From assembly GCA_000091165.1 (NCBI GenBank), contig FP565575.1, positions 2,070,001-2,102,000 on the forward strand: 32,000 bases of DNA. Direction: 5' to 3'. The first letter of the stretch is position 1. Every line of letters starts with the position of its first letter. The notes under the pieces are model-generated. The model was not told the origin of the DNA. It worked only from the letters and a program-made list of their open reading frames with translations, and made no database searches. The translations under genes were made by a program, and so were the position numbers. Positions 15,438 through 29,295 of the stretch are shown piece by piece. This DNA comes from Candidatus Methylomirabilis oxygeniifera (GTDB lineage: Bacteria > Methylomirabilota > Methylomirabilia > Methylomirabilales > Methylomirabilaceae).

Positions 15438-15446
15438 GCAAGCAGC

Positions 15447-15500: not shown

Positions 15501-15504
15501 ACCG

Positions 15505-16329
15505 GTGATGTATTACAGTAGCAACGTCATGGCTAAAATGGTGGGCTGGCGAGAGGCTGATTCGTGGCTTCACAAGGGAGAATCCCTGGATGGCCTTGGC
15601 TCTTCCGATCTGAAAGTCATCCAGAGCCTGACGGGTTTCCGCCATTCGATGGATGCGCTATTGCTGGCGCAGTGGGCCGCGCCGCGATCGACCGACCGGG
15701 TCCTTGATCTCGGCTGCGGAAACGGCGTGATCGCCTTCCTGCTGGCTCATCGACATCCGGAGCTTCGCATAGTCGGGCTTGAGGTTCAGCCCGCCTTGGC
15801 CGATCGGGCCAGGCGGGGAGTGCACCTCAACGGGTTACAGGGCCGCATCGAGATCGTGGAGGGCGACCTCCGTCAGGCCAAAGGGCTGCTACCGATCGCG
15901 GGTTTTGATATGGTTCTCTGTAACCCGCCATATCGAGAGTTGGCCAGCGGACGGCTCAGTCCGGATCCGGAGATCCGACAGGCCAAACATGAGTTGACCG
16001 CCACCCTAGAGGAGGCGATTGCGGCCGTCCGATACCTGCTCGCTCCAAAAGGGCGAGCGTGCCTGATCTACCATGCCTCACGGCTCGTCGATCTGCTGAG
16101 CAGTCTCAGGGCCGTGCGGCTGGAACCGAAGAGATTGCGGTTGGTCCACTCTTACCCCGGCGCCGAGGCGGAACTGAGCTTGGTGGAGGCGCGACGGCAC
16201 GGGCGACCGGGACTGCAGATCCTTGCCCCTCTGTTCGTCTATCAGGCACGAGGCGGCCCTTTATCGCCTGACATGGAAGCGATCTATCGCGGTTTGACCT
16301 TGTCTGAAGTTCGGAGTACAGTCGCATGA
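15505..16329 (+). CDS. trmN6: Class I SAM-dependent N6-adenine methyltransferase, tRNA1(Val) m6A37 TrmN6/YfiC-like
   Basis: SAM-binding motif VLDLGCGNGVIA, catalytic CNPPY, downstream QAKHE. The start is uncertain (GTG 15505, ATG 15508 or ATG 15529). Confidence 0.65.
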   Translation: MMYYSSNVMAKMVGWREADSWLHKGESLDGLGSSDLKVIQSLTGFRHSMDALLLAQWAAPRSTDRVLDLGCGNGVIAFLLAHRHPELRIVGLEVQPALADRARRGVHLNGLQGRIEIVEGDLRQAKGLLPIAGFDMVLCNPPYRELASGRLSPDPEIRQAKHELTATLEEAIAAVRYLLAPKGRACLIYHASRLVDLLSSLRAVRLEPKRLRLVHSYPGAEAELSLVEARRHGRPGLQILAPLFVYQARGGPLSPDMEAIYRGLTLSEVRSTVA

Positions 16330-17183
16330 GTCGATACACCATCGCGCTTGCTCAGATGAACCCGGCCCTCGGCGATCTGGAACGCAATCTTGCTCTGCAT
16401 GAAAAGACGGCCGAGGAGGCGATCGGCCGCGGAGCCGGTCTGCTGATCTGTCCTGAATTGAGTCTGACCGGATACTTTCTCAAAGACATCGTCTCATCCG
16501 TAGCCCTTCCCTTGGCCAGTCCCATTCTCGACAGACTCAGAGACTTGAGCCGTCGTATCGATCTTGTGGTCGGGCTGGTTGAAGAGTCGCCCGAACATCT
16601 GCTCTACAATGCCGCCCTCTATCTCTCCAGGGGCGAGATCCGACACGTCCACCGGAAGGTCTACCTGCCCACGTACGGGATCTTCGATGAGCAACGATAT
16701 CTCGCGGAGGGCAGTCGGATCAGAACATTTCAAGCGGACATCGGTCGATCTGCGATCTTGATCTGCGAGGATATGTGGCATCCATCGGTCGCGTGTATTG
16801 CCTCTCTCGATGGGATGGACATCCTCATCTCGCCCTCCGCCAGTCCGGGTCGCGGGGGTCTTGAGGAAGGTCGCACGTTCGCGAATGCCAGAGCCTGGGA
16901 AACGATCAATCGGGCCTATGCCCAGCTCTTTACCTGCTATGTCCTGTACGCGAATCGTGTCGGTTACGAGGATGGCGCCTGCTTCTGGGGCGGCTCAGAG
17001 GTGATCGCCCCATCCGGCGAACCGGTGGCCAAGGCAGAGTACCTCAGCGAGCAGATCCTGATAGCCGAAATCGACTCGGCAGAGGTTCGGCGGGCCAGAA
17101 TAGTGAATCCGCTGCTTCGAGACGAGCGAATGGATGTCACGCTTCGAGAACTGGAGCGGGTAAAGCGAGAGGTGGCCAGGTGA
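16326..17183 (+). CDS. Carbon-nitrogen hydrolase (nitrilase superfamily), likely glutaminase partner of NadE
   Basis: 285 aa. E-K-C triad contexts: [35 protein letters not shown] overlap with the upstream gene and GTGA overlap with nadE. Confidence 0.75.
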
Positions 17184-18001
17184 TCGCTCCCTCCCTGCAT
17201 TGCGAATTCGTCCAAAAGATTCTGACCGGGTTTATTGGCAATGAGGTCCAAAAGGCCGGTTTCAGCCGTGTCGTGATCGGGCTTTCCGGCGGGGTCGATT
17301 CGGCGCTATCCGCATATCTCGGGGCGAAGGCCCTTGGGGCCGAGAATGTCTGGGCCCTCCTGATGCCGTACAAAACCAGCAGTCCGGAGAGTCGAGAGCA
17401 CGCTGAGCTGGTCGTGAAGCAACTCCGCATCCAATCGGACGTCATCGACATCACACCGATGGTAGACGCCTACTTCGAACGTTTCCCAGAGTCGGATCAC
17501 GTTCGCCGGGGCAATAAGATGGCCCGCGAGCGGATGACGATCCTTTTCGACCATTCCGCTAAGCTGAAGGCGCTGGTTCTCGGCACCAGCAACAAAACGG
17601 AACTACTGCTGGGGTACGGCACACTGTATGGCGATATGGCCAGCGCTATTAATCCCCTTGGCGATCTGTACAAGACCCAGGTTCGGCAACTGGCTTGCTA
17701 CATGGGTATCCCGGAGGCTATCGTCCAAAAGGCGCCCAGCGGGGATCTCTGGGTCGGACAGACCGACGAGGCGGAGCTTGGCTTTAGTTACGAGGAGGTC
17801 GATCGGGTTCTCAATCTGATGGTAGACCGTCGTTACGAAATCCCTGAGATTATTGCTGCCGGCTTCGACGAGCGGTTCGTCCGGGCGGTTCTCGCCAAGG
17901 TCCAGGCCTCCCAGTACAAGCGCCGCCCACCCCTTATCGCCAAGATCTCTGCCCGCACGATTGACCGCGACTTCCGCTATCCCCGCGACTGGGGTAAGTA
18001 G
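17180..18001 (+). CDS. nadE: NAD+ synthetase (PP-loop ATP pyrophosphatase domain)
   Basis: 273 aa. PP-loop [26 protein letters not shown]-terminal KRRPP. Confidence 0.85.
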
Positions 18002-18200
18002 CGGCGCTATCGGATCCACAGCGGATTCATTCCCCGAAGCTTGCTGCAAGTTCGTTATACCGGCGAAAGCCGGTATCTAGAGAACCCGGAGGATTCCCCC
18101 GTATCCAGTGCGGAGCAGGCGTATTGAGCACGGAATGACTGGCCAGATCCCCTCCTCGACAACGCAGGCCTCACGAACCGGTCGGCGGCGAACCCTTTCC

Positions 18201-18752
18201 CTACTTGAAAGCATAGTTTATGTAGACGTGGTACGCTATGAGCAGCAACAACGCCATAGATAATCCGACATGGGCGCTGATCCACACCGGTCTGTACCAG
18301 GGCTTGTGGATTTTGACGATCTGAAAATTGAACAAGCCGGTGAGGAATGCCAGCAACAACGTCAGGCTGAGGATTTCGAGATAGCCGTATCCCAAGGTTT
18401 GGGAATGGCCAAAGAAAAACAACAGAAGCAGAGCGCCAAAAAGTTTGTGGCGACCCATCATGGTTGCGGCATTGCGCTGCTCCCCCTGAGCGCGCTTCAC
18501 GGAAAAACGCCACTGATAAAGAACAAACGCAAACAATCCGAAACCTGTGGCGAGCTTATACGTGTTGTCGTCTTGCAGTCCGGTCAACAAGGTCCACTGC
18601 CACCCGGTCGATTGCTGGACAATCAAAGCCACCAGCAGGAACAGGCCCAGCCAAAAATACCCCTTGGTGGGTACACCGGACCTCAGGCTGTCCGTCAGTG
18701 ACGATTTAAGTCGGTTGAAGCCTTGTATAACGACCAGGCTTTTAACGGGCAA
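18201..18752 (-). CDS. Small polytopic membrane protein (4-5 TM, conserved His), possibly a b-type cytochrome
   Basis: The track ORF 18201..19058 overlaps the upstream gene by 317 nt. I trimmed it to an in-frame TTG at 18752 (another lies at 18758); the first ATG is much further in. The TM segments are hydrophobic and carry His in or near them (FFFGHSQ, ISAHVGL, IAYHVYI). Confidence 0.45.
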   Translation of the reverse strand: MPVKSLVVIQGFNRLKSSLTDSLRSGVPTKGYFWLGLFLLVALIVQQSTGWQWTLLTGLQDDNTYKLATGFGLFAFVLYQWRFSVKRAQGEQRNAATMMGRHKLFGALLLLFFFGHSQTLGYGYLEILSLTLLLAFLTGLFNFQIVKIHKPWYRPVWISAHVGLSMALLLLIAYHVYINYAFK

Positions 18753-19611
18753 CGACAAGAGCGCCCCCTTCTTTGTTCGCTGCTGATCCGGGTTTTGGCT
18801 TGCTTGCCAGTGAGCTGAGCACCGCCAAAGTGTGCGGGGCTGTGCGCCTGGCGATTTCTCCCATGAACACCTCAGAGCTCGGCAGGAAATAACCCTCAGC
18901 CGGCCAGCGTTCGCCAATGGCGGGGGGATTGGCAAATTTCCGCGCCTTTTCAAGATAAGACTCGTAGGCTTCCTTGAAGCCTTGGCGTAAGGCGTCGAGC
19001 GTGCGGAGCAACTCGTCCATGGACACGCTGCCGCTTGGATACATCCACGTGGTCGCACCCATCACATCATTAAGCTTCCAGTCGTGCTTGGGTGATTGTT
19101 CGTGCTTGTTATGGCATTGAATGCAGCCCTCGACGACCGCCACATCACTGAACATGGCGACCTGCATTTGAATGTCGGGCATGAAAAAGAATTGCGGCTT
19201 AAGGGTTTGCTTGACCACCTGGAATTTTTCCAACTGCAGCCCCTCGAAGCGGTTCGCTGAGTTGACGGGATAGTCCGACCCCAGAAACAGGCTGAGCGGC
19301 GTCGGGTTCTTTTCCAGGCTTTTCGCCGTCTCACGTAGAAACAATGCGGGCAAAGGACCGGCCTCTACGTCCGCCTCACGCCAACGCTCGTCGAACTTCA
19401 AACCGGTCTGCTTGCCCGCGCCGACCACTTCCTTGGTCCACATTGCTCTCACCACGTCGTTTTCCGCCTTGAGAATCTCAAACATCCGTTCCACCGGGAT
19501 GGCCGCGTCGGCGGCCTTCTGCTCTTCCAATGGCGGCGGGGCACTGACAAACAGATAGATGCTCAAGGCACCCAGCGCCAGACAGGCGATCCAGAAGTTT
19601 TGTTTAGCCAT
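18742..19611 (-). CDS. Membrane-anchored c-type heme protein, DUF3365/Tll0287-like sensor fold
   Basis: Start ATG 19611 (MAKQNFWIACLALGALSIYLFV) overlaps the upstream stop (ATGGCTAA). There is a single CxxCH (VEGCIQCHNKHE) followed by WKLNDVMGATTW, resembling heme-c PAS-like sensor domains. Confidence 0.55.
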   Translation of the reverse strand: MAKQNFWIACLALGALSIYLFVSAPPPLEEQKAADAAIPVERMFEILKAENDVVRAMWTKEVVGAGKQTGLKFDERWREADVEAGPLPALFLRETAKSLEKNPTPLSLFLGSDYPVNSANRFEGLQLEKFQVVKQTLKPQFFFMPDIQMQVAMFSDVAVVEGCIQCHNKHEQSPKHDWKLNDVMGATTWMYPSGSVSMDELLRTLDALRQGFKEAYESYLEKARKFANPPAIGERWPAEGYFLPSSEVFMGEIARRTAPHTLAVLSSLASKPKPGSAANKEGGALVVAR

Positions 19612-20308
19612 CGTGACCATCCTGTTTTGCTTTGTAGTGAAGGGTTGTCCCATAAGGGGAGGGGCCACCGTCAAAATAGGCGCGGATTTTCTCTTTCGGC
19701 ATTCGCTTGTCGACCGATTTCTCAGTCTTCATGACGTGGTTGCCGTGGAAGTCGTGGCAGCCCAGGCAGGAGTCCCATTGCTTGTCGGCGATCAGGTCCG
19801 CATGGGACACGTCGATGGGATCTTTCTTTAAGCGGGTGTCCTTGTGGCAGTTCACGCAATAGTCGGTCTCCGCCAACGTGACACGCCTCCCCTGGTGCTC
19901 GGCGTGGCAAGAGACACACTGATGGGGACGCAGCTTTTCCCGAGCCTGGCTGAAACGGGGCTCGAGGAAGCGATAGACCGGGTGGCGGTCATTGGGTCGC
20001 TCGTGACAGGCCATGCAGTCCGCATTACCTACGGGAAGCCGTCCGAAGTAGGCGGGCACTTTACGCCAACCAACGGCATGGCGCAGATTGGCCTGAATCT
20101 GCTGGCGGAGGCTGCCTGGTGCGTTTTTATGGCAGGCCGCGCAGGCAAGCTTGCCGTGTCCTGTATTCATGGGTCCTTTCGCATGAAACCACTCCCCGAC
20201 GGGAAGCACGGTAAACGCCAGGATCGCAAATCCCAAACAGAAGCCGATCGCATAGGCGCGGTTTTGCCATTTCCGTGCCCCTCCAAGTTTCGCTCTCATG
20301 GCCGCCAC
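19604..20308 (-). CDS. Membrane-anchored pentaheme cytochrome c
   Basis: One N-terminal TM helix and five CxxCH motifs (CAACH, CMACH, CVSCH, CVNCH, CLGCH). The start is GTG 20308 or ATG 20299. Confidence 0.8.
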   Translation of the reverse strand: MAAMRAKLGGARKWQNRAYAIGFCLGFAILAFTVLPVGEWFHAKGPMNTGHGKLACAACHKNAPGSLRQQIQANLRHAVGWRKVPAYFGRLPVGNADCMACHERPNDRHPVYRFLEPRFSQAREKLRPHQCVSCHAEHQGRRVTLAETDYCVNCHKDTRLKKDPIDVSHADLIADKQWDSCLGCHDFHGNHVMKTEKSVDKRMPKEKIRAYFDGGPSPYGTTLHYKAKQDGHDG

Positions 20309-20419
20309 GTCAAGCTACGCGCCAGAAACTCACGCTGATGCATTAGGCCTTATCATGTCTGTCTACTGTGTAGCTTACCGGTAGCGAAGATGAAACGTCT
20401 ATTCACCCTCCGAATGAAG

Positions 20420-20465
20420 AGGGTGGGGGTGATCCGAAGGCAACCACTTGGCTCACCCCCACCCT
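20420..20465 (-). terminator. Stem-loop downstream of the 95-aa gene (possible terminator or processing site)
   Basis: 13-bp perfect stem: agggtgggggtga (20420-20432) and tcacccccaccct (20453-20465), with a 20-nt loop. There is no clear U-tract. Confidence 0.35.
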
Positions 20466-20497
20466 ATGCTTCCGGCCCTCAAGAGAACTTCTGAGAG

Positions 20498-20785
20498 CTA
20501 CTCGATGACCTCCATAATCCGACTCTGCACATTTGTGGCTAACTCCATGAGCTCGCTACGAAGCGCCTTGCGCTCATCGAGGGCCAAAATCTTATCGAAG
20601 TTGCTGAAGTCGCCGACCTCAATCGTAATGACCCGCTCCAACTTATTCGCCAAGTGGTCCCCATAGATGTGGAACCTCGAGACCCCTTGGTTGGCGAGCC
20701 AGAATTTTTTCATTTTACCGACTAAGAAGGCATCCAATGCGTCTTCTTTTCCTGGTGCGACTTCACACATGATGTGGTAGATCAT
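20498..20785 (-). CDS. Small cytoplasmic hypothetical protein (95 aa)
   Basis: Strong SD (AAAGGAGGAG) 6 nt before the ATG. No signal peptide. I recognise no family. Confidence 0.6.
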   Translation of the reverse strand: MIYHIMCEVAPGKEDALDAFLVGKMKKFWLANQGVSRFHIYGDHLANKLERVITIEVGDFSNFDKILALDERKALRSELMELATNVQSRIMEVIE

Positions 20786-21019
20786 CGTTGCTCCTCCTTT
20801 GACATCGGGTGTACGTTATGGTTGCCTTTCCTCGCCCCTGCACACGTCATCGATCACCCCCTCTCGGGATCAGTGCGTCGAACTGCCGCATACTCATCGA
20901 TCGCTTCGAGTGCTCTTGGGGGGCGCGCCGACTGTCGTCATTGAGTGCGATCCTGACGCACGCCTGCTACTGTAGCACTTAGCCATCATTCAGCGCACCG
21001 CTGCCATTGGGCTTAACGA

Positions 21020-21400
21020 CTATCGTCCTCCGGTAAAGCCTCTGACATAGACAACCAGATCCTTGATCTCGGACTCGGAAAACTTTAGCCCATATGCCGG
21101 CATCCCCCCCTTACTACCCTGCTTAATACTCCTGAAGAGGGCGTCATCGGACCGTGTTTGCATAAAGGCTGAGTTGGTTAAGTCTGGCACCCTAAACATA
21201 AAAAAAAGTGCTAATGCCTGAAACCCATTCCCCTTGCCGCTGGTGCCGTGGCATCTGGAGCATTTTGACTCGAAGTTCGACTGCCCGCTTACCGCACTTT
21301 TCGTCTCCGCGCCGGACGCGGAAGAGGCCCCCACAACGAACAACATCACCATCACGCCTAACCACTGGCAACGGAGCCGGGACAGAAAAAAAACGCGCAT
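21020..21400 (-). CDS. Monoheme class I cytochrome c (c55x-like), periplasmic
   Basis: Start ATG 21400, preceded by GAGGAGGG (the track offers 21445). Signal peptide (LGVMVMLFVVGASSASG), CSRCHG heme site, GGMPAYG distal Met, EIKDLVVYVRG tail. Confidence 0.8.
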   Translation of the reverse strand: MRVFFLSRLRCQWLGVMVMLFVVGASSASGAETKSAVSGQSNFESKCSRCHGTSGKGNGFQALALFFMFRVPDLTNSAFMQTRSDDALFRSIKQGSKGGMPAYGLKFSESEIKDLVVYVRGFTGGR

Positions 21401-21577
21401 CGTAATTGCCCTCCTCTCATCTAAAGGTGTAACCTGTGCGTGCATCGTTTTGTCACTCGTGTATACGTGGTTAGTGCGCTAACTCCATGATACCAAAGGG
21501 TCACGACCGGAACAATGCTTTTAAGCTGTAACGTTCGGGGTCGGATCTCACGTGTGAGGCGTCCGCGTTGACAAAGC

Positions 21578-21618
21578 GATACCTCCCAGCCAGCGCTACC
21601 ACTGTACTGGGAGGTATC
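21578..21618 (-). terminator. Putative terminator downstream of the first qNOR-like gene
   Basis: 12-bp perfect stem: gatacctcccag (21578-21589) and ctgggaggtatc (21607-21618), with a 17-nt loop. It lies 37 nt after the stop and has a weak T-tract. Confidence 0.45.
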
Positions 21619-21654
21619 AGCATGAAGTGTGCTGTGCCTACCTGGATTCTCAGG

Positions 21655-24081
21655 TTAGAATGCCTCGTCGCCGGCCGCCCAAGCCTCCCGCTCCTTCGCC
21701 TTCTCCCTGTCGTAGATGGTCCATTCACCTTCCTCGACGACAGAGGCTTCGCGGACCATCCGCCCTGCTCTTGACAGAATGAAATAGACGAGAGGCAACA
21801 CGCCGCCAAACAGGAAGACCGCGCCGCCGATCGTGCGCATCCACGTCAAGGTAATCCACACACTATCCGTGACGTGCGCCTGTGCTCGGGCAGCCCAAAG
21901 GCCTTCCTTGAAGACGGTTGCAACCTGGTACAGACCGACAGGGAACAAGTCCAACATCATCATCAGCACCAAGCCGACCTGCAACGACCAGAAAATGCCC
22001 TTGATCAGCTTCTCATTCCAGGCAGAGCGCTGGAACAGGTGCTGGCAGGCAAACAGCATACCGGCAATGGCGATGTTACCCTTGACACCGAACATGGCGG
22101 CATGGGCATGGTTGCCGGTGAGGTAGGTGCCGTGCTCATAGTAGTTGACGATGGGCAGGTTGATCAACGAGCCGAAGACACCCGCGCCGAAGATGTTCCA
22201 GAAGTTGACGGCAAGAATGAACGTCCAGACGCCGTCCATCACGAAGCGCTGCTTACCCTCGGCAATGTTTTCATGGGCCTTGGTCCGCTCCGTCCGCATC
22301 TTCCAGGCGTCCAGGGTGATCAACAGCAGCGGCAGCACCTGCATGGTGGAGAAGACGCTGCCCAGTGCGATGATCCCTGTCGGCTTGGCGATCCAGTAGA
22401 AGTTGTGGGAGATCCCGATCAGGGCGGTTACCAGGAACATCATGACGGCCAGGAAGATAACCCGCTCGGCCATCGCCCGGTTGACCAGACCCATCTGCAC
22501 CAGCATGTACCCAACGATACAGGTGGTGAAGACCTCGAAGGTGACCTCAACCCACATGTGAATGTTCATCCACCGCCAGTAGTCGGCGATGGCGAAGTTC
22601 TGCGATGGGGTCATGAACATCCCGAAGAACAGGAACAGCACCATGATACCGCTGCCGTAGAACAGCCAAGCCGGCACTGACCAGAGGTTCTGGCTGGTGA
22701 TCCAGGGCTTCACAGCGCGGAAGATGATGTAGACCCACAGACAGAACGAGGCCAGCATCAGGATATGCCAGAAGCGGCCCAGCTCCAGGAACTCCCAGCC
22801 CTGGCTGCCGAACCAGTAGGCCATGTCGTCGGTCATGTACCCCGTGTGGCCAAGGTAGATGCCGAACAGCGCGCCTGCGCCGACGATCAGACATAGTGTA
22901 AAGAGCAGGTTGATCAGGAACCGCTGGCCGTTCGGCACCTTCGAAATGCGGGGCAGGAAGAAGAGAGTGTAGCCGACCCAGGCCATGAAGAACCAGTAGA
23001 TCTGCACAATGGTATGCCACCCGCGAGTAACGGTGAAGGGGATGGTGAACCCCAATACCGTTGTGGCGATGGCACTACCCGGTCCACCGCCGACGAAATC
23101 TTCGGCGCTCAGGATACCGGCCAGCACCTGCACCAGGAACAGGATGACAGCGAACGCAAAGAACTTATAGGTGGCGCGCTGAGTCGGCCGCACATAGGCA
23201 TCGCCCTTGTTTTCAAGGTCGACCGTGGTGAGCGACCAATCGCGCCCGTTGAACGGCTCGCCGGGCAGGACCTTCATCTCCCCGTAGACGTACAGGACCA
23301 GCATGGTGCCACAGAACAGCACGAAGATCGAGATGAAACTCCAGAGATAGGTCTCGAACGTCGGAGTATTACCGACTAGCGGATCGGGTGGCCAGTTGTG
23401 AGTGTAGGTATAGTCAAAACCCGGCCGATTCGCCCCGGAGACCCAACCTCCCCAGAAGAAATATCCCGCTAGTGCTTTGAGGTCTTCAGGGCTACTGATA
23501 TGATTCTCGATCCTGCCCTTCATGAACGCTTCTTCGTAGGTGGCATCCGTAAACATGCGCGTATAGTGCGTGATCAACTCCTGATACGCAAAGACCTGAG
23601 CCGGATTGATACGGATGATGTTAGCAGCCGCATCATACCCGTTCTCATGGATTTCGCGCTTGACCCTGACCGAGATCATATCGCGATCCGCCTGGGTGAC
23701 GGGACGCTCCTTCGCGATCTCATTTTCGTAGAACTTGCTCATTGATACATAGGTATGGTGTAGTGCTTCAGCGGTGAAATCCGGACCGCGTTCACCGCCG
23801 TCTCCCCAAAAAGAGCCATAGGTCATCAGACCTTTCAGATGAAAGACCTGTTTCCCGCGCTGGATCTGCCACTCGGGGATGACGGTTTCTCCGGTAGATG
23901 ACAAGACATAATTGGTCAATGGCGGAGCTGAGGTATAAGTCCATACACCGAGGGCAACCAACCCAATGACACTGATAACGGTCACGATCAAGGCGTGAAG
24001 CCACCAGTACTTCTTAATCAGCAAGGCTTGGCCGAAGGTCCTATTAGTTTTCCCCATTCCACTACTTGAACTAGATCTCAT
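21655..24081 (-). CDS. nod: qNOR-like heme-copper oxidase with altered active and quinol sites: candidate NO dismutase (downstream copy)
   Basis: 808 aa from ATG 24081, which has an AGGAGG SD 5 nt upstream (the track uses GTG 24102). Architecture: N-terminal TM helix, a heme-free periplasmic domain (no CxxCH), then a 12-TM core. Motifs: RGWH, YWRWMNIHMWVEV, GISHNFYW, STMQVLPL, GNHAHAAMFG. Confidence 0.85.
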   Translation of the reverse strand: MRSSSSSGMGKTNRTFGQALLIKKYWWLHALIVTVISVIGLVALGVWTYTSAPPLTNYVLSSTGETVIPEWQIQRGKQVFHLKGLMTYGSFWGDGGERGPDFTAEALHHTYVSMSKFYENEIAKERPVTQADRDMISVRVKREIHENGYDAAANIIRINPAQVFAYQELITHYTRMFTDATYEEAFMKGRIENHISSPEDLKALAGYFFWGGWVSGANRPGFDYTYTHNWPPDPLVGNTPTFETYLWSFISIFVLFCGTMLVLYVYGEMKVLPGEPFNGRDWSLTTVDLENKGDAYVRPTQRATYKFFAFAVILFLVQVLAGILSAEDFVGGGPGSAIATTVLGFTIPFTVTRGWHTIVQIYWFFMAWVGYTLFFLPRISKVPNGQRFLINLLFTLCLIVGAGALFGIYLGHTGYMTDDMAYWFGSQGWEFLELGRFWHILMLASFCLWVYIIFRAVKPWITSQNLWSVPAWLFYGSGIMVLFLFFGMFMTPSQNFAIADYWRWMNIHMWVEVTFEVFTTCIVGYMLVQMGLVNRAMAERVIFLAVMMFLVTALIGISHNFYWIAKPTGIIALGSVFSTMQVLPLLLITLDAWKMRTERTKAHENIAEGKQRFVMDGVWTFILAVNFWNIFGAGVFGSLINLPIVNYYEHGTYLTGNHAHAAMFGVKGNIAIAGMLFACQHLFQRSAWNEKLIKGIFWSLQVGLVLMMMLDLFPVGLYQVATVFKEGLWAARAQAHVTDSVWITLTWMRTIGGAVFLFGGVLPLVYFILSRAGRMVREASVVEEGEWTIYDREKAKEREAWAAGDEAF
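22000..23269. repeat. Near-identical tract shared with 25287-26553 (paralog homogenisation)
   Basis: By direct comparison, 22000-22099 equals 25287-25386 (100/100). 22271-22835 equals 25558-26122 (564/565; the mismatch is at 22587). 23110-23269 equals 26394-26553 (160/160). The segments in between are visibly diverged. Confidence 0.9.
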
Positions 24082-24376
24082 CGCTACCTCCTGTGGCCAC
24101 ACCTTTTACTGAGGTGGTCACATTCCCATTTCCACTGCTTGTTCTTTTCTTTCCATCCAATCTTTCCATCCAAGTCATCGTTGATGCCTATCGCGTCGGG
24201 GGCGCACGTACTTGGTCGGCAAACCGGAGACCGCGGGTTAGCCGCCCAAAGCCTGATCGACCATCCGGTAACCCTTTGCTCAACCTCTCGATCCACGTCA
24301 TAGGCCTCATGAGCGCACTCCTCCTTGACTCCAGCGCCATCAGCTTACAGTCAAAATGTAGACTCTCCGGCAGGGC

Positions 24377-24415
24377 TTGTAAATTGGATGATCGGCTTAA
24401 TTTTCGATGCAAATG
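24377..24415 (-). promoter_or_regulatory. Conserved upstream element TTGTAAAT-N21-GATGCAWATG (copy upstream of the downstream nod paralog)
   Basis: ttgtaaat (24377-24384) and gatgcaaatg (24406-24415), 296-334 nt upstream of the ATG. Two copies upstream of the other paralog share the same architecture. Confidence 0.45.
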
Positions 24416-24851
24416 CATTAGTCCTGTGGAGTGTAATTGTTGGCCTCAGAACCAGTAAGCCGTGTTAACCACCCGGCGGGACAAATCGGCAGAGGGTCTG
24501 TCCAGGAGGGGTGAGACGACTATCTTTTCAAGTCACTTGCATCGGCCGGGATAAGCTCCAGGCGTTACTATAGAACACCGTTATAGGTATTATAGGACGC
24601 GGTCGACACTAAGTCAAGCGGTCGCGTCCCATAGTGGCCAGATGACCCACGTTAACTCTTCGGCGCGATAATAACAACGTTCTACTTATTCTTATTGAGG
24701 ATGGGGAAGATTTGGAGGGTGTGGAGATTGTCGGGAGAGCGCACTTCGAGCGAGCAAAGGCGTGCATAGGACTACGAAAGCGGTCAGAGGTCAGGCGGGT
24801 ATCCGGCGGCTTGTGCGGCTGGCCAGCCTCAGAAGAAGGGATGGGGGAGCA

Positions 24852-24901
24852 TAAAAAACAATACCCCCCGGCACAACATCTCTGTTGTGCCGGGGGGTAT
24901 T
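24852..24901 (-). terminator. Strong intrinsic terminator after the upstream qNOR-like gene
   Basis: Perfect 19-bp stem: aataccccccggcacaaca (24860-24878) and tgttgtgccggggggtatt (24883-24901), with a 4-nt loop. On the minus strand it is followed by GTTTTTTAT. Confidence 0.9.
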
Positions 24902-24941
24902 GAAAGTGCGTGCTACTTACGTGCAGACTAAGAACGTTAGA

Positions 24942-27374
24942 CTAGAACGCCTCGTCAGAAGCGGCCCAAGCCTCTCGCTCTTTCGCCTTCTCTCTGTCGT
25001 AGATCGTCCACTCGCCCTCTTCAACGACGGCAGCTTCGCGGACCATCCGTCCAGCCCTCGACAGAATGAACCAGCACAGAGGCAGAACACCACCGAACAG
25101 GAAGACCACGCCGCCGATTGACCGAAGCCAAGTCAGCGTGTGCCATACCTCGTTGGTGACGAACGACTGCTGGCGGCCATACCAGAACCCATACTGGAAG
25201 ATGTGGGCGAGCTGATACAGACCGACCGGGAACATATCCATGAGCATCATCATCACGATGCCGACCTGCAGGGACCAAAAGACAGTCTTGATCAGCTTCT
25301 CATTCCAGGCAGAGCGCTGGAACAGGTGCTGGCAGGCAAACAGCATACCGGCAATGGCGATGTTACCCTTGACACCGAACATGGCGCCATGGGCATGGTT
25401 GTTGGTGAGGTAGGTGCCGTGCTCATAGTAGTTGACGATGGGCAGGTTGATCAACGAGCCCATGACACCGGCACCGAAGATGTTCCAGAAGTTGACGGCG
25501 AGGATGAACGTCCAGACACCGTCCATCACGAAGCGCTGCTTGCCCTCAGAAAGGTGCTCATGGGCCTTGGTCCGCTCCGTCCGCATCTTCCAGGCGTCCA
25601 GGGTGATCAACAGCAGCGGCAGCACCTGCATGGTGGAGAAGACGCTGCCCAGTGCGATGATCCCTGTCGGCTTGGCGATCCAGTAGAAGTTGTGGGAGAT
25701 CCCGATCAGGGCGGTTACCAGGAACATCATGACGGCCAGGAAGATAACCCGCTCGGCCATCGCCCGGTTGACCAGACCCATCTGCACCAGCATGTACCCA
25801 ACGATACAGGTGGTGAAGACCTCGAAGGTGACCTCAACCCACATGTGAATGTTCATCCACCGCCAGTAGTCGGAGATGGCGAAGTTCTGCGATGGGGTCA
25901 TGAACATCCCGAAGAACAGGAACAGCACCATGATACCGCTGCCGTAGAACAGCCAAGCCGGCACTGACCAGAGGTTCTGGCTGGTGATCCAGGGCTTCAC
26001 AGCGCGGAAGATGATGTAGACCCACAGACAGAACGAGGCCAGCATCAGGATATGCCAGAAGCGGCCCAGCTCCAGGAACTCCCAGCCCTGGCTGCCGAAC
26101 CAGTAGGCCATGTCGTCGGTCAGCATACCAGTGTGGCCGGCATAAATCCCGAACAGCGCACCGGCGCCAACGAGCACGCACAGCGCAAAGAGTAGGTTGA
26201 TCAGGAACCGCTGCCCGTTGGGTACCTTCGAAATGCGGGGCAGGAAGAAAAGGGTGTAGCCAACCCAGGCCATGAAGAACCAGTAGATCTGGACGATGGC
26301 ATGATAGCTTCGGACGACGCTGAAGGGGATGACGAGTCCGAACGCGCCCAAGATCGCTTCACCCGGTCCACCGCCGACGAAATCCTCGGCGCCCAGGATA
26401 CCGGCCAGCACCTGCACCAGGAACAGGATGACAGCGAACGCAAAGAACTTATAGGTGGCGCGCTGAGTCGGCCGCACATAGGCATCGCCCTTGTTTTCAA
26501 GGTCGACCGTGGTGAGCGACCAATCGCGCCCGTTGAACGGCTCGCCGGGCAGGGACTTCATTTCGCCATAGACGTACAGGACCAGCATGGTGCCAGCGAA
26601 CAGCACGAGGATCGAGAGGAAGCTCCAGATGTACGTCGCGTACGTCGGGAGGTTGCCGGCATCAGGATCATACGGCCAGTTGTGGGTATAGCTGTAGATC
26701 TCGCCCGGTCGATTTGCGCCGGCTACCCAGCCGCCCCAGAAGAAGTAACCCGCCAATCCCTTGATGTCCTCCGGGTTGCTGACATAGCTCTGAATCCGAC
26801 CCTTCTGGAATGCCTCTTCATAGGTGGGATCGGTGAACATCTTGGTGTAATGGTCGACCAATTCATTATACGCAAAGATCTGGGCATCGTTCAGGCGGAT
26901 GACGCCTGCTGCTGCGTCATAACCGTTCTGATGAATCTCTCGCTTGACCTTTCCCGCGATCCCGTCCTTCTCGTCCTGGGTTGCGGGGCGGCCCTGCTCT
27001 TTCTCAATCTGCATCTCATAGTACTTGCCCATGGAGACGAAGGTTCGATGCAGAGCTTCTGCGGTGAAATCCGGTCCGCGCTCTGCGCCGTCACCCCAGA
27101 AGGATCCGTAGAGCATCAGACCCTTCAGGTGAAACACCTGCTTTCCACGATTCATGGAATGCTCAGCAATGACCACGTCCCCTGATTTGCTTACGAAGTT
27201 AACCAGAGGGGGAGCGCCCGCGTAGGTCCAGACGCCGAGAGCAATCAAACCGATGGTGCTAATCGCGGTAACGATCAAAGCATGAAGCCACCAATACTTC
27301 TTGATAAGTAGTACTTGTGCAAATGTCCTCTCGTTCTTGCCCTTTGCTGCAGTTCCGCTGGGATTCGGACTCAT
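24942..27374 (-). CDS. nod: qNOR-like heme-copper oxidase with altered active and quinol sites: candidate NO dismutase (upstream copy)
   Basis: 810 aa from ATG 27374, which has a GGGAGG SD 5 nt upstream (the track uses GTG 27413). It has the same architecture and motifs as the other copy: RSYH, YWRWMNIHMWVEV, GISHNFYW, STMQVLPL, NNHAHGAMFG. Confidence 0.85.
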   Translation of the reverse strand: MSPNPSGTAAKGKNERTFAQVLLIKKYWWLHALIVTAISTIGLIALGVWTYAGAPPLVNFVSKSGDVVIAEHSMNRGKQVFHLKGLMLYGSFWGDGAERGPDFTAEALHRTFVSMGKYYEMQIEKEQGRPATQDEKDGIAGKVKREIHQNGYDAAAGVIRLNDAQIFAYNELVDHYTKMFTDPTYEEAFQKGRIQSYVSNPEDIKGLAGYFFWGGWVAGANRPGEIYSYTHNWPYDPDAGNLPTYATYIWSFLSILVLFAGTMLVLYVYGEMKSLPGEPFNGRDWSLTTVDLENKGDAYVRPTQRATYKFFAFAVILFLVQVLAGILGAEDFVGGGPGEAILGAFGLVIPFSVVRSYHAIVQIYWFFMAWVGYTLFFLPRISKVPNGQRFLINLLFALCVLVGAGALFGIYAGHTGMLTDDMAYWFGSQGWEFLELGRFWHILMLASFCLWVYIIFRAVKPWITSQNLWSVPAWLFYGSGIMVLFLFFGMFMTPSQNFAISDYWRWMNIHMWVEVTFEVFTTCIVGYMLVQMGLVNRAMAERVIFLAVMMFLVTALIGISHNFYWIAKPTGIIALGSVFSTMQVLPLLLITLDAWKMRTERTKAHEHLSEGKQRFVMDGVWTFILAVNFWNIFGAGVMGSLINLPIVNYYEHGTYLTNNHAHGAMFGVKGNIAIAGMLFACQHLFQRSAWNEKLIKTVFWSLQVGIVMMMLMDMFPVGLYQLAHIFQYGFWYGRQQSFVTNEVWHTLTWLRSIGGVVFLFGGVLPLCWFILSRAGRMVREAAVVEEGEWTIYDREKAKEREAWAASDEAF
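25287..26553. repeat. Near-identical tract shared with 22000-23269
   Basis: See the partner feature. The offset is +3287 for the first two blocks and +3284 for the third, because a one-codon indel lies between them. Confidence 0.9.
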
Positions 27375-27621
27375 TGTTACCTCCCGTGGTTCTACCTCAT
27401 TCGAGGTGACCACCTTGCATTGTTATTACCGTGCCGTCTTGAGTTGGGATGATCCCAATTCACCGGGGGCGCCCGCGCTTCGCGAACAGTGCACAGGGCG
27501 CGGGTTTGACGGCAACCGCCTGTTGGAACAGGCGGTGACCCGCTACACTGCTTACCGATTCTCATCATACCGTCCATGGGGAACGCCTCCTCTGCGCCAA
27601 TACTGCGATCCCCTGTAGGCT

Positions 27622-27660
27622 TTGTAAATCCTGCGACTGAATCAATCCGCGATGCATATG
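27622..27660 (-). promoter_or_regulatory. Conserved upstream element, proximal copy (TTGTAAAT-N21-GATGCATATG)
   Basis: ttgtaaat (27622-27629) and gatgcatatg (27651-27660), 248-286 nt upstream of the ATG at 27374. Confidence 0.45.
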
Positions 27661-27690
27661 TACTATACTATTTACTATCCTCAGTGAGAC

Positions 27691-27730
27691 TCGTAAATCC
27701 TGCGATTGACTCAATATGCTGATGCATATG
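27691..27730 (-). promoter_or_regulatory. Conserved upstream element, distal copy (TCGTAAAT-N22-GATGCATATG)
   Basis: A direct repeat of the proximal copy (gtaaatcctgcgaYtgaMtcaat...gatgcatatg) with a 69-bp period. It is bracketed by the perfect 10-bp inverted repeat cctcagtgag (27679-27688) and ctcactgagg (27736-27745). Confidence 0.45.
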
Positions 27731-27944
27731 CACCACTCACTGAGGTTTTAGAGAGATCCCAGGGACGCGAGAGGGTAAAACATATAAAACAGGGTTTACC
27801 CGATCACGCAGTAACCCGACGATCTGTCGGTCGGTCCATGGCGCGGTGCTTATCAAGACTGCGTCCATCAGAACAGTATTCTGATACACAATAGAAGAAC
27901 CGATCCTCACTAGATTTGGCTGTGAATCGCTTCATCCTCGCCCA

Positions 27945-28847
27945 TCACGCTGCCTTATTGGGCTCCTTTGGAGCCCCTGGCGCCTGTCCTGCCTCCGCGC
28001 GAGCCGCAGGCTCCCGCCGTGCAATCTCGTTCACGTAGGCGACAGCCTCCAGTCGTGAGTGAACCTTGAGCTTACTGAAGATGTTCTGGATGTGGTTTCT
28101 CACTGTAGTTTTACTGATGAAAAGCTGCTCCGCGATAGCCGCCGTCGTTGCGCCCGTCCGCATCAGGGTAACAACCTGCAGCTCTCGCCGAGTTAAGTCA
28201 CCGACAGGAGATACGGTCTTTTCGCTCGCCGTAAGTTGAGTCTGAGCCAGTTGTTGCCGAACAAGCACCTCAAGCTGGTGCGCCGCAGTGACATCACGGA
28301 AGAGATGAACAACTGTCGGGGGTTGGTTGTCCTCACAGGGAAGAGCAACACAGCTCACATCGATCCATAGCGGTTTACCCGTCCTCGTCCGAGTAGCCAT
28401 CTCGAAATGCTGGATCAGATCTCCACGGCTCAACGTCATCTTCAGCGGGCAAGGCCACTGACAAAGCTGATTGCCGTTACTATCACGGCCGTTGAAGAAC
28501 TCACGGCATTGCTGTCCGACAACTTGTTGCGCGGAAGCTTCCAGGATAGTTTCAGCGGCTTGGTTGCAGAACAGAATCTCTCCGGTCGGCGCACTGACAA
28601 ACACGCCATCGGCCGTCTCAGCGAAAAGCTTGAAGGCGGCTTCGCGTGGTTCCGTAGGCTGTCCGCTTCCCGGCTCGTTTCGCGAATCCTTTTCATCGAC
28701 TTCATCAACTGCAGGTGTAAGCCGATGCTCGTCTTCGCCGTCTATGCGGTAGTCGACTGCCTCGCCTGTACGGACACCGCCATCACGCCGCAGGCCTGCC
28801 CTGGAAATTCGCACCGAACGTTTCGGTCCGTTGCCTGAATGCGCCAT
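27945..28847 (-). CDS. PAS-domain LuxR/FixJ-family transcriptional regulator
   Basis: 300 aa. The central PAS-like region (DGVFVSAPTGEILFCNQAAETILE...LWIDVSCVAL...VVHLFRDVTAAHQLE) carries five Cys. The C-terminal LuxR HTH is LTRRELQVVTLMRTGATTAAIAEQLFISKTTVRNHIQNIFSKLKV. No good SD, so the start is uncertain. Confidence 0.75.
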   Translation of the reverse strand: MAHSGNGPKRSVRISRAGLRRDGGVRTGEAVDYRIDGEDEHRLTPAVDEVDEKDSRNEPGSGQPTEPREAAFKLFAETADGVFVSAPTGEILFCNQAAETILEASAQQVVGQQCREFFNGRDSNGNQLCQWPCPLKMTLSRGDLIQHFEMATRTRTGKPLWIDVSCVALPCEDNQPPTVVHLFRDVTAAHQLEVLVRQQLAQTQLTASEKTVSPVGDLTRRELQVVTLMRTGATTAAIAEQLFISKTTVRNHIQNIFSKLKVHSRLEAVAYVNEIARREPAARAEAGQAPGAPKEPNKAA

Positions 28848-29089
28848 AGTTTTAATATAAAGTCCTCATTACGACCTGTCAAGCCGAAAAAAGGGGATAC
28901 AGATCCGCACGTATTTGCAAGGCTGACCCGATGCCTGGTACGCACGACCGGATCAGCACGGGTAATGGGGTCGGGCTTGTGACAGATACAGTGTCGCCGC
29001 TCCGCGCGACCGTCACTTCTGCCAAGGCGTATTTCATCGTTATGTTGCCGGAGGTGCGGCTGCGAGCCCTGGGAGACCGAAGAAAACGC

Positions 29090-29118
29090 TTGACAGGGGA
29101 TGCGGGCTGTGCGATAGT
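29090..29118 (+). promoter_or_regulatory. Possible sigma70-type promoter for the porin gene
   Basis: TTGACA (29090-29095), 17 nt spacer, GATAGT (29113-29118). About 180 nt upstream of the ATG. Sequence match only. Confidence 0.25.
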
Positions 29119-29295
29119 GACGCCCATCCTAAGGTCTAAGGCCCCACTGCAAGTCCGCACGGAGGTTAGGAAGCCCGCGTACGCCAAGCTAGAGATGGTC
29201 TCATCGGGGCGGGGTTGCTTCAGAGCCCCGCATCAGCAAAGCGCTCTGAATTCAGGAGCGCCGTGGTTAACCTAAAGAGCAGAGGGAGGGGGATC

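What the first reader, a model, noticed from the sequence alone, without database searches (positions are those of the whole stretch)
22000..23269. Mosaic of nucleotide-identical blocks between the two paralogs: gene conversion over the catalytic core
Three blocks are identical or nearly so at the DNA level:
- 22000-22099 versus 25287-25386: 100/100.
- 22271-22835 versus 25558-26122: 564/565. The single difference, at 22587/25874, gives Ala versus Ser.
- 23110-23269 versus 26394-26553: 160/160.

The intervening segments, the 3' ~345 bp and the 5' ~800 bp differ at many synonymous and non-synonymous sites, and one codon indel lies between blocks 2 and 3. Abrupt identity boundaries inside otherwise diverged paralogs are the classic footprint of recent gene conversion.

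The 565-bp block encodes exactly the helices that carry the unusual His/Asn, Gln and FeB-block residues. The atypical active site is therefore being kept identical in both copies, while the periplasmic N-domain and the C-terminal helices diverge.
Basis: seen in the sequence. Interest (0 to 1): 0.65.

Follow-up and report, generated by a model that had tools for sequence, protein, structure and literature searches.

The report
Gene conversion between twin nod genes
The two neighbouring genes for the putative oxygen-making nitric oxide dismutase of the methane-eating bacterium Methylomirabilis oxyfera keep overwriting each other's catalytic middle section, while their ends, one short internal segment and one amino acid stay different.

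Summary
The longest identical run is 316 nt, against at most 85 nt in 10,000 permutations.

The genes are the known tandem nod paralogs of Ca. Methylomirabilis oxyfera, probably DAMO_2434 (A) and DAMO_2437 (B), on the minus strand.

Gene conversion is well supported:
- Paralog dS is 0 in the blocks but above 1 in the flanks.
- Ortholog dS in the same core is 0.15-0.42, so nucleotide-level constraint does not explain the identity.
- With tandem pairs from three other Methylomirabilis genomes, flank trees separate an A clade from a B clade. Core trees pair the two copies of each genome.
- Identical runs differ between genomes.

New details:
- The single Ala/Ser difference inside the 565-bp block is kept in 6 of 7 two-copy genomes.
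- A ~60-nt part of the segment between blocks 2 and 3 is only about 55% identical in every full pair.
- Both point to selection limiting conversion.

Two other assemblies of the same strain differ from the window only in which paralog's version fills the segments between blocks. This is either ongoing conversion or assembler collapse, and I could not decide which.

The mechanism is known. I found no earlier report of it for nod.

The parts
21655..24081 (-). nod copy A (808 aa from the ATG at 24081; the ORF extends to a GTG at 24102). Probably DAMO_2434. A qNOR-like putative NO dismutase.
   Evidence: Pfam finds PF22085 and PF00115. The product is 100% identical to P0001, which lies on a 2,752,854-bp contig. 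The His560Asn and Glu581Gln substitutions are seen in the alignment to 3AYF. The identity with DAMO_2434 is inferred from gene order and together with PMC10989891.
24942..27374 (-). nod copy B (810 aa from the ATG at 27374; the ORF extends to a GTG at 27413). Probably DAMO_2437. It lies upstream of A in the direction of transcription, with a start-to-start spacing of about 3.29 kb.
   Evidence: Amino-acid identity to A is 83.6%, matching the 84% published for DAMO_2434/2437 (PMC3413370). A Logan contig, L089, reproduces it at 100% over 3008 nt.
22000..22099 (-). Block 1 in copy A (= 25287-25386 in B), 100/100 identical. It encodes AMFGVKGN...EKLIK, just after the HAH heme-ligand motif.
   Evidence: In 5 of 7 two-copy genomes A and B are identical over all 100 nt, and L084 and L085 differ at one and two sites. 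The block differs between genomes at 1-9 synonymous sites.
22100..22270 (-). Island I1 in A (= 25387-25557 in B): 16 differences in 171 nt. It carries paralog-specific residues (NIA vs HLS, F vs M, G vs N, A vs G).
   Evidence: Most of the differences are shared with the orthologs in L001, so they predate the oxyfera/L001 split.
22271..22835 (-). Block 2 in A (= 25558-26122 in B), 564/565 identical. It encodes the FeB His/Glu, His-Asn and Gln catalytic motifs.
   Evidence: There are 0 synonymous differences over about 126 synonymous sites. The core tree pairs the paralogs by genome.
22585..22587 (-). Ala codon in A (GCC) versus Ser codon in B (TCC, 25872-25874). This is the only difference inside block 2. 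It aligns with Ala499 of G. stearothermophilus qNOR, nine residues before the FeB/ZnB ligand His508.
   Evidence: A has Ala and B has Ser in 6 of 7 two-copy genomes (oxyfera, L001, L080, L082, L084, L094). The codon in oxyfera A combines the A-type first base with the B-type third base.
22836..23109 (-). Island I2 in A (= 26123-26393 in B): 60 substitutions plus one codon indel. The most diverged part (about 23020-23079) is only 54-56% identical in every full pair. It encodes the stretch just before the heme b ligand His (GSAIATTVLGFTIPFTVTRGWH in A, GEAILGAFGLVIPFSVVRSYH in B).
   Evidence: Eight of the ten codons with disjoint A/B amino acids in the central region fall here.
23110..23269 (-). 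Block 3 in A (= 26394-26553 in B), 160/160 identical.
   Evidence: At sites where the L001 copies differ, oxyfera carries the L001-B state at 8 sites and the L001-A state at 1. This suggests B was the donor here.
24859..24902 (-). Strong hairpin (20-bp stem, 12 G-C pairs) followed by a T-run, 40 nt after the stop codon of B. A likely intrinsic terminator that separates the two transcription units.
   Evidence: The transcript-like contig L089 ends at 24911, just before it.
24589..24617 (-). Promoter-like site TTGACT-17-TATAAT (11 of 12 matches) about 500 nt upstream of the ATG of A.
   Evidence: This is a consensus match only, and the region as a whole has no excess of such sites.
27622..27733 (-). 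Two copies of a conserved upstream motif, TGCAT-N-TGCATC ... GATTTAC(A/G)A, ahead of B. A third copy lies ahead of A at 24377-24418.
   Evidence: (family D4). The motif is conserved upstream of nod genes in L001, L080 and L082. Its function was not tested.
27945..28847 (-). PAS + LuxR/GerE-type regulator gene immediately upstream of B. It is syntenic in all related loci.
   Evidence: Pfam; synteny.

Best explanation
The window carries the two tandem, same-strand nod genes of Ca. Methylomirabilis oxyfera. These are qNOR-like putative NO dismutases.

The duplication is old. It predates the split of the Methylomirabilis species sampled here, and the N-terminal roughly 260 codons and C-terminal roughly 115 codons have diverged to saturation at silent sites. 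The central roughly 1.3 kb is repeatedly homogenised by intrachromosomal, non-reciprocal homologous recombination (gene conversion) between the two direct repeats, which lie 3.29 kb apart.

The inferred mechanism is as follows. A break or stalled fork in one copy is repaired from the misaligned other copy. Heteroduplex and mismatch correction then copy the donor sequence into the recipient. Because recombination needs runs of near-perfect identity, the most conserved part of the protein (the catalytic helices) is where exchange starts and ends. Each event restores the homology that allows the next one.

The process is bounded in two ways. The diverged ends offer too little homology. Selection also removes convertants that lose paralog-specific residues: the Ala/Ser site, the core of island I2, and several residues of I1.

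In the oxyfera lineage the last events postdate the split from its closest sampled relative (L001). They ran in both directions and left three perfectly identical blocks.

What is shown: the mosaic, its significance, the collapse of silent divergence, the phylogenetic incongruence, and the conserved exceptions. What is inferred: the molecular mechanism (RecA-type recombination) and the role of selection at the exceptions.
For: - **Mosaic.** The blocks are exact and non-random.
- **Silent divergence.** Between A and B, pS is 0.77 in the N-terminal part and 0.62 in the C-terminal part. It is 0 over about 126 synonymous sites in the core.
- **No nucleotide-level constraint.** In the same core, dS between orthologs is 0.15-0.21 (oxyfera vs L001) and 0.37-0.42 (vs L080, L082). 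Silent sites there are free to change between genomes.
- **Quartet sites with L001.** 288 sites support orthology overall. In the main core (columns 1261-1800) 9 sites support the within-genome grouping against 1 for orthology, and 21 such sites exist in total.
- **Trees.** In the flanks the oxy+L001 ortholog pairs and the B clade have 100% bootstrap (A clade 36-71%). In the core, oxyfera A+B has 100%, L080 A+B 100%, L082 A+B 84%, and oxyfera+L001 form a four-sequence clade at 100%.
- **Tract limits differ by genome.** The longest identical run is 316 nt in oxyfera, 104 in L001, 230 in L080, 134 in L082 and 837 in L083.
- **Block 1.** Genome-specific synonymous variants are shared by both copies; 5 of 7 pairs are fully identical.
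- **A robust independent case.** L001 is a single k141 contig that spans both copies with no exact repeat longer than 104 nt. Repeat collapse cannot explain its high core similarity.
- **Agreement between assemblies.** Four assemblies of the oxyfera sequence (window, L088, L090, L089) never disagree inside the blocks. They disagree only at true A/B differences, which argues against hidden differences in the blocks.
- **Both copies are functional.** In the flanks dN/dS is 0.03-0.17.
Against: - No reads are available, so perfect identity of the blocks in the real chromosome is not directly verified.
- This locus is demonstrably error-prone in assembly. Two other assemblies of the same strain carry different versions of the islands. 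Many MAG contigs break inside the core.
- Some of the within-genome identity in L080, L082 and L083 could be inflated by repeat collapse, since their assemblers are unknown.
- Selection at the Ala/Ser site and in island I2 is inferred from their persistence across genomes, not measured.
- No recombination genes or donor/recipient intermediates were examined.
Confidence: 0.86

Rival explanations
1. Assembly artefact. The identical blocks arise because short-read assembly collapsed two merely similar paralog segments into one consensus and wrote it into both copies.
For: Other assemblies of the same strain (L088, L090) show exactly this kind of both-copies-identical outcome in the islands. Contigs of several MAGs start or end inside the core. 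The published M. iodofontis Nod had to be stitched from two contig ends (PMC10989891).
Against: The window assembly resolves a single-base difference in the middle of block 2, and it keeps both island types. The B sequence is reproduced 100% by an independent Logan contig, and the A sequence by L088. Four assemblies agree at every block position but disagree at the true differences. L001 spans both copies without long exact repeats and still shows 93-99% core identity against 60-75% in the flanks, with the same phylogenetic signal.
Confidence: 0.06
2. Purifying selection or a nucleotide-level constraint (for example an overlapping RNA or an antisense ORF) keeps the catalytic core identical, without any exchange between the copies.
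For: The core is the most conserved part of the protein. Long antisense ORFs overlap it (21874-22680 and 25140-25967).
Against: Silent sites in the core differ freely between orthologs (dS 0.15-0.42), yet not at all between the paralogs of one genome. Genome-specific silent variants are shared by both copies. Rfam finds nothing in the window. Constraint cannot make paralogs group by genome.
Confidence: 0.02
3. A recent duplication, or recent replacement of the middle of one copy by lateral transfer from another strain, followed by fast divergence of the ends.
For: Any recent copying event produces identical stretches.
Against: The ends form deep A and B clades shared by at least four genomes, with saturated dS. 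So the duplication is old. Import from another strain would make a copy resemble a foreign ortholog, not its own neighbour. The same region is homogenised independently in every genome.
Confidence: 0.03
4. A sub-question rather than a full rival. The differences between the window and the L088 and L090 assemblies are real, recent conversion events segregating in enrichment cultures: A to B over at least 1007 bp in L088, and two opposite events in L090.
For: All 80 (L088) and 64 (L090) differences are swaps to the other paralog's sequence. They lie exactly between the identical blocks, and nothing else differs in 13-18 kb. Pre-existing identical blocks are the expected anchor points for such events.
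Against: L090 needs two events in opposite directions with no accompanying point mutation. Graph-based or hybrid assemblers can pop such 'bubbles' and write one branch into both copies. A transcript-like contig from a separate sequencing run still carries the window-type B. Both variants erase residues that are conserved in other genomes.
Confidence: 0.3

Closest known systems
The two putative NO dismutase genes of Ca. Methylomirabilis oxyfera, DAMO_2434 and DAMO_2437 (Ettwig et al. 2012, PMC3413370; Versantvoort et al. 2018, PMC6094997)
   Same: These are those genes. The product is 100% identical to a protein on a 2,752,854-bp contig. Amino-acid identity between the copies is 83.6%, against the published 84%. 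The His-to-Asn and Glu-to-Gln substitutions and the loss of the quinol-site residues are all present.
   Different: The papers I could search describe two 'highly similar' paralogs and two nod clades. None mentions a nucleotide-identity mosaic, gene conversion or concerted evolution.
Gene conversion between the duplicate tufA/tufB genes of Salmonella and E. coli (Abdulkarim and Hughes 1996; recalled from memory, not checked here)
   Same: Two old bacterial paralogs evolve in concert through recombination-dependent, non-reciprocal exchange.
   Different: The tuf genes lie far apart in inverted orientation and are homogenised over nearly their whole length. Here the copies are tandem direct repeats 3.3 kb apart. 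Only the central roughly 1.3 kb is homogenised, and the ends and a few internal sites stay paralog-specific.
Near-identical multiple copies of pmoCAB/amoCAB operons in methanotrophs and ammonia oxidisers (recalled from memory, not checked here)
   Same: A key catabolic membrane metalloenzyme is present in duplicate in a C1/N-cycle specialist, and the copies are kept alike within a genome.
   Different: There, whole operons are nearly identical. Here the result is a partial mosaic that preserves two distinguishable isoforms.
Observation that both M. limnetica nod copies cluster together rather than in the DAMO_2434 and DAMO_2437 clades (Zhu et al. 2019, PMC6636425)
   Same: It concerns the same gene pair. 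It is the pattern expected from conversion within the amplified region (primers at positions 684-1706), which overlaps blocks 2 and 3.
   Different: It was reported as a phylogenetic placement without a mechanism. I did not identify or analyse the M. limnetica pair by name.

Membership tests
Putative NO dismutase (Nod) subgroup of qNOR-like heme-copper oxidases | qNOR architecture: an N-terminal cytochrome-c-like periplasmic domain without heme c, fused to a COX1-type core | tested here: met
   Both copies match PF22085 (E 1e-44 and 2e-46) and PF00115 (E 2e-48 and 2e-49). Neither has a CXXCH motif. The best solved relative is G. stearothermophilus qNOR 3AYF, E 5e-129.
Putative NO dismutase (Nod) subgroup of qNOR-like heme-copper oxidases | One FeB-ligand histidine replaced by asparagine (His560 in 3AYF numbering) | tested here: met
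   GISHNFYW aligns with GIGHHYYY of 3AYF. The motif is present in both copies. The criterion comes from PMC3413370.
Putative NO dismutase (Nod) subgroup of qNOR-like heme-copper oxidases | Catalytic-site glutamate replaced by glutamine (Glu581 in 3AYF numbering) | tested here: met
   FSTMQVLPL aligns with FSALEVIPL. The motif is present in both copies.
Putative NO dismutase (Nod) subgroup of qNOR-like heme-copper oxidases | Quinol-binding residues of qNOR (His328, Glu332, Asp746 in 3AYF) not conserved | tested here: met
   In the alignment these positions are Glu, Gly and Gly in copy A. I counted residues by hand from that alignment.
Putative NO dismutase (Nod) subgroup of qNOR-like heme-copper oxidases | Catalyses 2 NO -> N2 + O2 | not testable with these tools
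   According to PMC6094997 this has not been shown biochemically for any Nod.
Gene conversion / concerted evolution of paralogs | Runs of identity with sharp limits that exceed chance, given the overall divergence | tested here: met
   The longest run is 316 nt, against at most 85 nt in 10,000 permutations. The longest run of silent-site identity is 160 codons, against at most 42.
Gene conversion / concerted evolution of paralogs | Silent-site divergence collapses inside the tract while orthologs still differ there | tested here: met
   In the blocks, paralog dS is 0 and ortholog dS is 0.15-0.42. In the flanks, paralog dS is above 1.
Gene conversion / concerted evolution of paralogs | Phylogenetic incongruence: paralogs group by genome inside the tract and by ortholog outside it | tested here: met
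   NJ bootstrap values and quartet site counts.
Gene conversion / concerted evolution of paralogs | Non-reciprocal transfer: the donor stays unchanged and the recipient is overwritten | tested here: inconclusive
   In L088 and L090, B carries A's sequence while A is unchanged (apart from one site in L090). These may be assembly artefacts.
Gene conversion / concerted evolution of paralogs | The repeat structure is confirmed on single DNA molecules | not testable with these tools
   No reads are available. The only support is indirect, from agreement between four assemblies.

The most novel reading that the evidence does not exclude
Conversion at this locus may be frequent enough to be seen on laboratory time scales. 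The three assemblies of one strain would then be three real haplotypes: the window type, one with island I2 overwritten, and one with the whole 1270 bp overwritten. On this reading the nod pair is a dynamic locus that keeps generating chimeric enzymes, and selection keeps restoring a small set of isoform-defining residues (Ala/Ser nine residues before the FeB histidine, the helix before the heme b histidine, and a few in I1). Those residues would mark what differs functionally between the two dismutases. They would give a ready list for mutagenesis of an enzyme whose chemistry is still unproven.
Probability: 0.3. Interest if true: 0.6.

Novelty: new member of a known kind. Interest (0 to 1): 0.45.

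Why it matters
- **Marker-gene phylogeny.** nod is used as the marker gene for oxygenic denitrifiers. The common amplicon (positions 684-1706) and the NC10 qPCR amplicon (840-1012) of PMC6636425 lie largely in the homogenised region. Trees from them mix orthology with within-genome exchange. This can explain why the two copies of some species cluster together.
- **MAG assembly.** The repeats explain why MAGs of Methylomirabilis so often have broken, missing or stitched nod genes. Contig ends fall inside the core, and the M. iodofontis Nod was joined from two fragments. Published sequences may therefore be A/B chimeras.
- **Candidate isoform residues.** The few positions that resist homogenisation across genomes are a short, evidence-based list of residues likely to distinguish the two isoforms of an enzyme that has never been characterised biochemically.

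Tried and rejected
- **Anchor search in metagenomes.** I searched JGI metagenome contigs for a B-specific 30-mer next to block 3, to find more assemblies of the strain. There were no hits.
- **Conserved pattern from block 1.** This gave only 5 loci, one of them already held. They added one more B copy, partial A copies and two single-copy genes.
- **Source of the other assemblies.** Searching the papers for the accession numbers of L088, L089 and the MAGs found nothing. The sequencing platform of those assemblies stays unknown.
- **Deletion by-product.** I looked for the expected by-product of unequal crossing-over, a single B-5'/A-3' hybrid gene. The single-copy genes found are A-type throughout (L086, L092) or B-type throughout (L095).
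- **Dimer helix idea.** I tested whether island I2 is the 'dimer-stabilising TMII' of qNORs. By the numbering of PMC7201271, TMII is the helix right after the periplasmic domain, about residues 246-270 here. I2 is the next helix, so I dropped the idea.
- **RNA families.** An Rfam scan of the whole window found nothing.
- **Promoter and terminator scan.** It showed no excess of sites. Only the hairpin after B is individually convincing.
- **A dN/dS error.** My first dN/dS run on the core used ranges that were out of frame and gave nonsense. I redid it in frame.
- **Unavailable paper.** PMC5288823 (Zhu et al. 2017) is not held in the library.
Full report
**What is there**

The window has 57.6% G+C. 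It carries two long minus-strand ORFs, 21655-24102 and 24942-27413. From their conserved ATG codons they encode 808 aa (copy A, 21655-24081) and 810 aa (copy B, 24942-27374). Both have the qNOR architecture: PF22085 plus PF00115. Their best solved relative is the Geobacillus stearothermophilus qNOR 3AYF (E 5e-129).

In that alignment both copies carry the published hallmarks of the putative NO dismutases:
- His560 is replaced by Asn (GISHNFYW).
- Glu581 is replaced by Gln (FSTMQVLPL).
- The quinol-site residues His328, Glu332 and Asp746 are replaced.

These come; the criteria are from PMC3413370.

Copy A is 100% identical to a database protein that sits on a contig of 2,752,854 bp. The two copies share 83.6% of their amino acids, against the 84% published for DAMO_2434 and DAMO_2437. 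So the window comes from Ca. Methylomirabilis oxyfera and these are its two known nod genes. A is probably DAMO_2434 and B probably DAMO_2437, inferred from gene order and together with PMC10989891.

**The observation**

The three blocks are exactly as reported: 100/100, 564/565 and 160/160. The single mismatch, at 22587/25874, is the first base of an Ala (A) / Ser (B) codon.

Over the whole gene pair there are 417 differences in 2418 aligned sites. The longest identical run is 316 nt, against a mean of 34 and a maximum of 85 in 10,000 shuffles. Restricting the test to codons that encode the same amino acid removes protein-level constraint as an explanation. Silent differences then occur in 1 of 243 codons inside the blocks and 171 of 371 outside (p=5e-45).

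By the Nei-Gojobori method, pS is 0.77 in the first 780 nt, 0.62 in the last 375 nt, and 0 over about 126 synonymous sites in the core.

One refinement: similarity is raised across all of 22000-23311. The stretch between blocks 1 and 2 (island I1) has 16 differences in 171 nt. The stretch between blocks 2 and 3 (island I2) has 60 substitutions and a codon indel in about 274 nt.

**Comparative test**

A scan of one genome per species, plus exact look-ups of homologous proteins, returned tandem nod pairs from other Methylomirabilis genomes:
- L001: 97% amino-acid identity, mislabelled 'Patescibacteria'.
- L080 and L082: full pairs.
- L083, L084, L085 and L094: pairs in which one copy is cut by a contig end.
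- L086, L092, L095 and L087: single-copy relatives.

Every two-copy genome shows the same picture. Identity between A and B is about 55-80% in the ends and 85-100% in columns about 781-1000 and 1261-2100 of the alignment. The exactly identical runs differ by genome: 316 nt in oxyfera, 104 in L001, 230 in L080, 134 in L082 and 837 in L083.

Neighbour-joining trees of the ends pair the oxyfera and L001 orthologs and recover the B clade at 100% bootstrap (the A clade at 36-71%). The duplication therefore predates these species. Trees of the core pair the two copies of each genome (oxyfera 100, L080 100, L082 84). They also unite all four oxyfera and L001 sequences (100).

In the oxyfera/L001 quartet, 288 sites support orthology overall. 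In the main core (columns 1261-1800) 9 sites support the within-genome grouping against 1 for orthology, out of 21 such sites in total.

In the blocks, dS between the oxyfera paralogs is 0. Between oxyfera and L001 orthologs it is 0.15-0.21, and against L080 and L082 it is 0.37-0.42. Silent sites in the core therefore change freely between genomes but not between the copies of one genome. This excludes nucleotide-level constraint. It also dates the last oxyfera events to after the split from L001.

Block 1 shows the effect at single-site resolution. Each genome has its own synonymous variants there, and they are shared by both copies; 5 of 7 pairs are identical over all 100 nt. In the diverged ends both copies are under purifying selection, with dN/dS of 0.03-0.17.

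**What limits the tracts**

The one difference inside block 2 is not random. A has Ala (GCN) and B has Ser (TCC) in oxyfera, L001, L080, L082, L084 and L094, which is 6 of 7 two-copy genomes. The surrounding sequence is homogenised in all of them.

In oxyfera A this codon is GCC, while the A copies of the other genomes have GCG or GCA. It therefore combines the A-type first base with the B-type third base. Converted sequence abuts this nucleotide on both sides. The simplest reading is that convertants which lose this residue are removed by selection. The site aligns with Ala499 of 3AYF, nine residues before the FeB/ZnB ligand His508.

Likewise, about 60 nt of I2 (around 23020-23079) are only 54-56% identical in all four full pairs. 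This stretch encodes the helix just before the heme b ligand histidine. Eight of the ten codons in the central region with disjoint A and B amino acids fall in I2.

Several block limits in the window coincide with A/B differences that are conserved across genomes: columns 991, 1833 and 2003, corresponding to 23109, 22270 and 22100. So the mosaic reflects both where homology suffices and where selection tolerates exchange.

The direction of transfer is mixed. Block 3 and much of block 2 carry B-type states, but sites such as columns 1629 and 1794 carry A-type derived states. Most I1 differences are shared with L001 and are therefore older than the blocks. The history is layered rather than a single event.

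**Is it an assembly artefact?**

This had to be taken seriously, because the locus is clearly hard to assemble. Contigs of L024, L073, L083, L084, L085 and L094 start or end inside the homogenised region.

More strikingly, two other assemblies of apparently the same strain differ from the window only in the islands:
- L088 (ENA ERZ24907703, 93 kb) matches window 13655-32000 perfectly except for 80 positions. All of them lie in copy B, at 25387-25557, at 25874 and at 26123-26393. All change B to the A sequence. In L088, A and B are therefore identical over one run of 1270 nt, corresponding to A coordinates 22000-23269.
- L090 (GCA_009026205.1, 90 kb) matches 18942-32000 perfectly except that I2 of B is A-type and that A carries B's Ser base at 22587.

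These may be real conversion haplotypes. They may equally arise when a graph-based or hybrid assembler pops the island 'bubbles' and writes one branch into both copies. L090 would need two opposite events with no other mutation. A transcript-like contig from a separate sequencing run (L089) carries the window-type B at 100% over 3008 nt. I therefore lean towards artefact (about 0.7) but cannot decide.

Either way, the window version is the least collapsed one. Its B-type islands are orthologous to B in other genomes, so they are real. All four assemblies agree at every position of the blocks and disagree only at true A/B differences, so hidden differences inside the blocks are unlikely. L001 gives independent support. 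It is one k141 contig spanning both copies with no exact repeat above 104 nt, so collapse cannot explain its mosaic.

**Mechanism**

The best explanation is recurrent, non-reciprocal homologous recombination between two direct repeats 3.29 kb apart. It starts and resolves in the long runs of identity offered by the conserved catalytic core, and each event restores the homology for the next. It is blocked by the diverged ends and filtered by selection at a few isoform-specific sites. The pattern is shown. The enzymology (RecA-type strand exchange and mismatch correction of heteroduplex) is inferred from general knowledge of bacterial gene conversion.

**Local context**

- B is preceded by a PAS-LuxR regulator gene (27945-28847).
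- B is followed by a strong hairpin terminator (24902-24859).
- A has a promoter-like site at 24617-24589.
- A conserved motif lies upstream of both genes.

The two copies therefore look like separate transcription units.

**Comparison with what is known**

The genes and their unusual active site are already described (PMC3413370, PMC6094997). Gene conversion between bacterial paralogs is a known process.

Full-text searches found no paper that combines 'gene conversion' with 'nitric oxide dismutase', and nothing relevant for 'concerted evolution' with Methylomirabilis. The nod marker-gene paper notes, without explanation, that both M. limnetica copies cluster together (PMC6636425). Conversion would explain that.

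I therefore rate this as a new member of a known kind. It is solidly supported and of practical importance for nod phylogenies, primer design and MAG curation. It also gives a short list of candidate isoform-defining residues. It is not conceptually surprising. Interest 0.45.

Noticed in passing
window 24911-27918 (minus strand); locus L089: The Logan contig L089 (run ERR13927278) begins with an Illumina adapter fused directly to window position 27918. It ends at 24911, just before the hairpin terminator at 24902-24859. It looks like a monocistronic nod-B transcript with a leader of about 544 nt. A k=31 assembly could only cross the 316-nt repeats if B reads far outnumbered A reads, as they would in RNA-seq.
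   Followed up: partly
window 27691-27733, 27622-27663 and 24377-24418 (minus strand); also L001 5992-6103 and 9248-9289, L080 4564-4606, L082 4484-4525: A conserved motif, (G/A)TGCAT-N-TGCATC, about 20 nt, then GATTTAC(A/G)A, lies 250-350 nt upstream of both nod start codons. There are two copies before B and one before A. It is conserved in related genomes. It may be an operator plus a -35 element for the adjacent PAS-LuxR regulator, but this was not tested.
   Followed up: partly
L073 (Ca. Methylomirabilis sp. bin48, contig end at 7294); L024; L083-L085; L094: Many MAG contigs start or end inside the homogenised nod core. L073 belongs to the M. iodofontis MAG. Its published Nod was joined from two contig-end fragments through a 26-residue overlap (PMC10989891), so it may be a chimera of the two paralogs.
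   Followed up: partly
L001 (DATMXF010000229.1): This contig is deposited as 'Patescibacteria group bacterium'. It carries the Methylomirabilis nod tandem at 97% amino-acid identity. It is almost certainly mis-binned.
   Followed up: no
L086, L092, L095: Some close relatives have only one nod gene at this locus. It is A-type throughout in L086 and L092, with the PAS-LuxR gene directly upstream in L086. It is B-type throughout in L095. I found no B-5'/A-3' hybrid that would mark a deletion by unequal crossing-over.
   Followed up: partly
window 18055-21445 (minus strand): Downstream of nod A lies a cluster of a small cytochrome c (21020-21445), a multiheme cytochrome (19604-20308) and a Tll0287-like protein (18742-19674). 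The cluster is present in oxyfera and L082-L085. It is absent in L080 and L086, where the NAD synthase gene follows nod directly.
   Followed up: no
window 23311-23313 (A codon 257) / B codon 260: There is a fixed Cys (A) versus Ala (B) difference in the helix right after the periplasmic domain. That helix corresponds to the 'dimer-stabilising TMII' of qNORs (PMC7201271). Whether the two Nods form homo- or heterodimers is unknown.
   Followed up: no
window 21874-22680 and 25140-25967 (plus strand): Long antisense ORFs of 268 and 275 aa mirror each other across the two nod cores. They are most likely by-products of the G+C-rich coding sequence on the other strand, and they are duplicated because the core is.
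   Followed up: no
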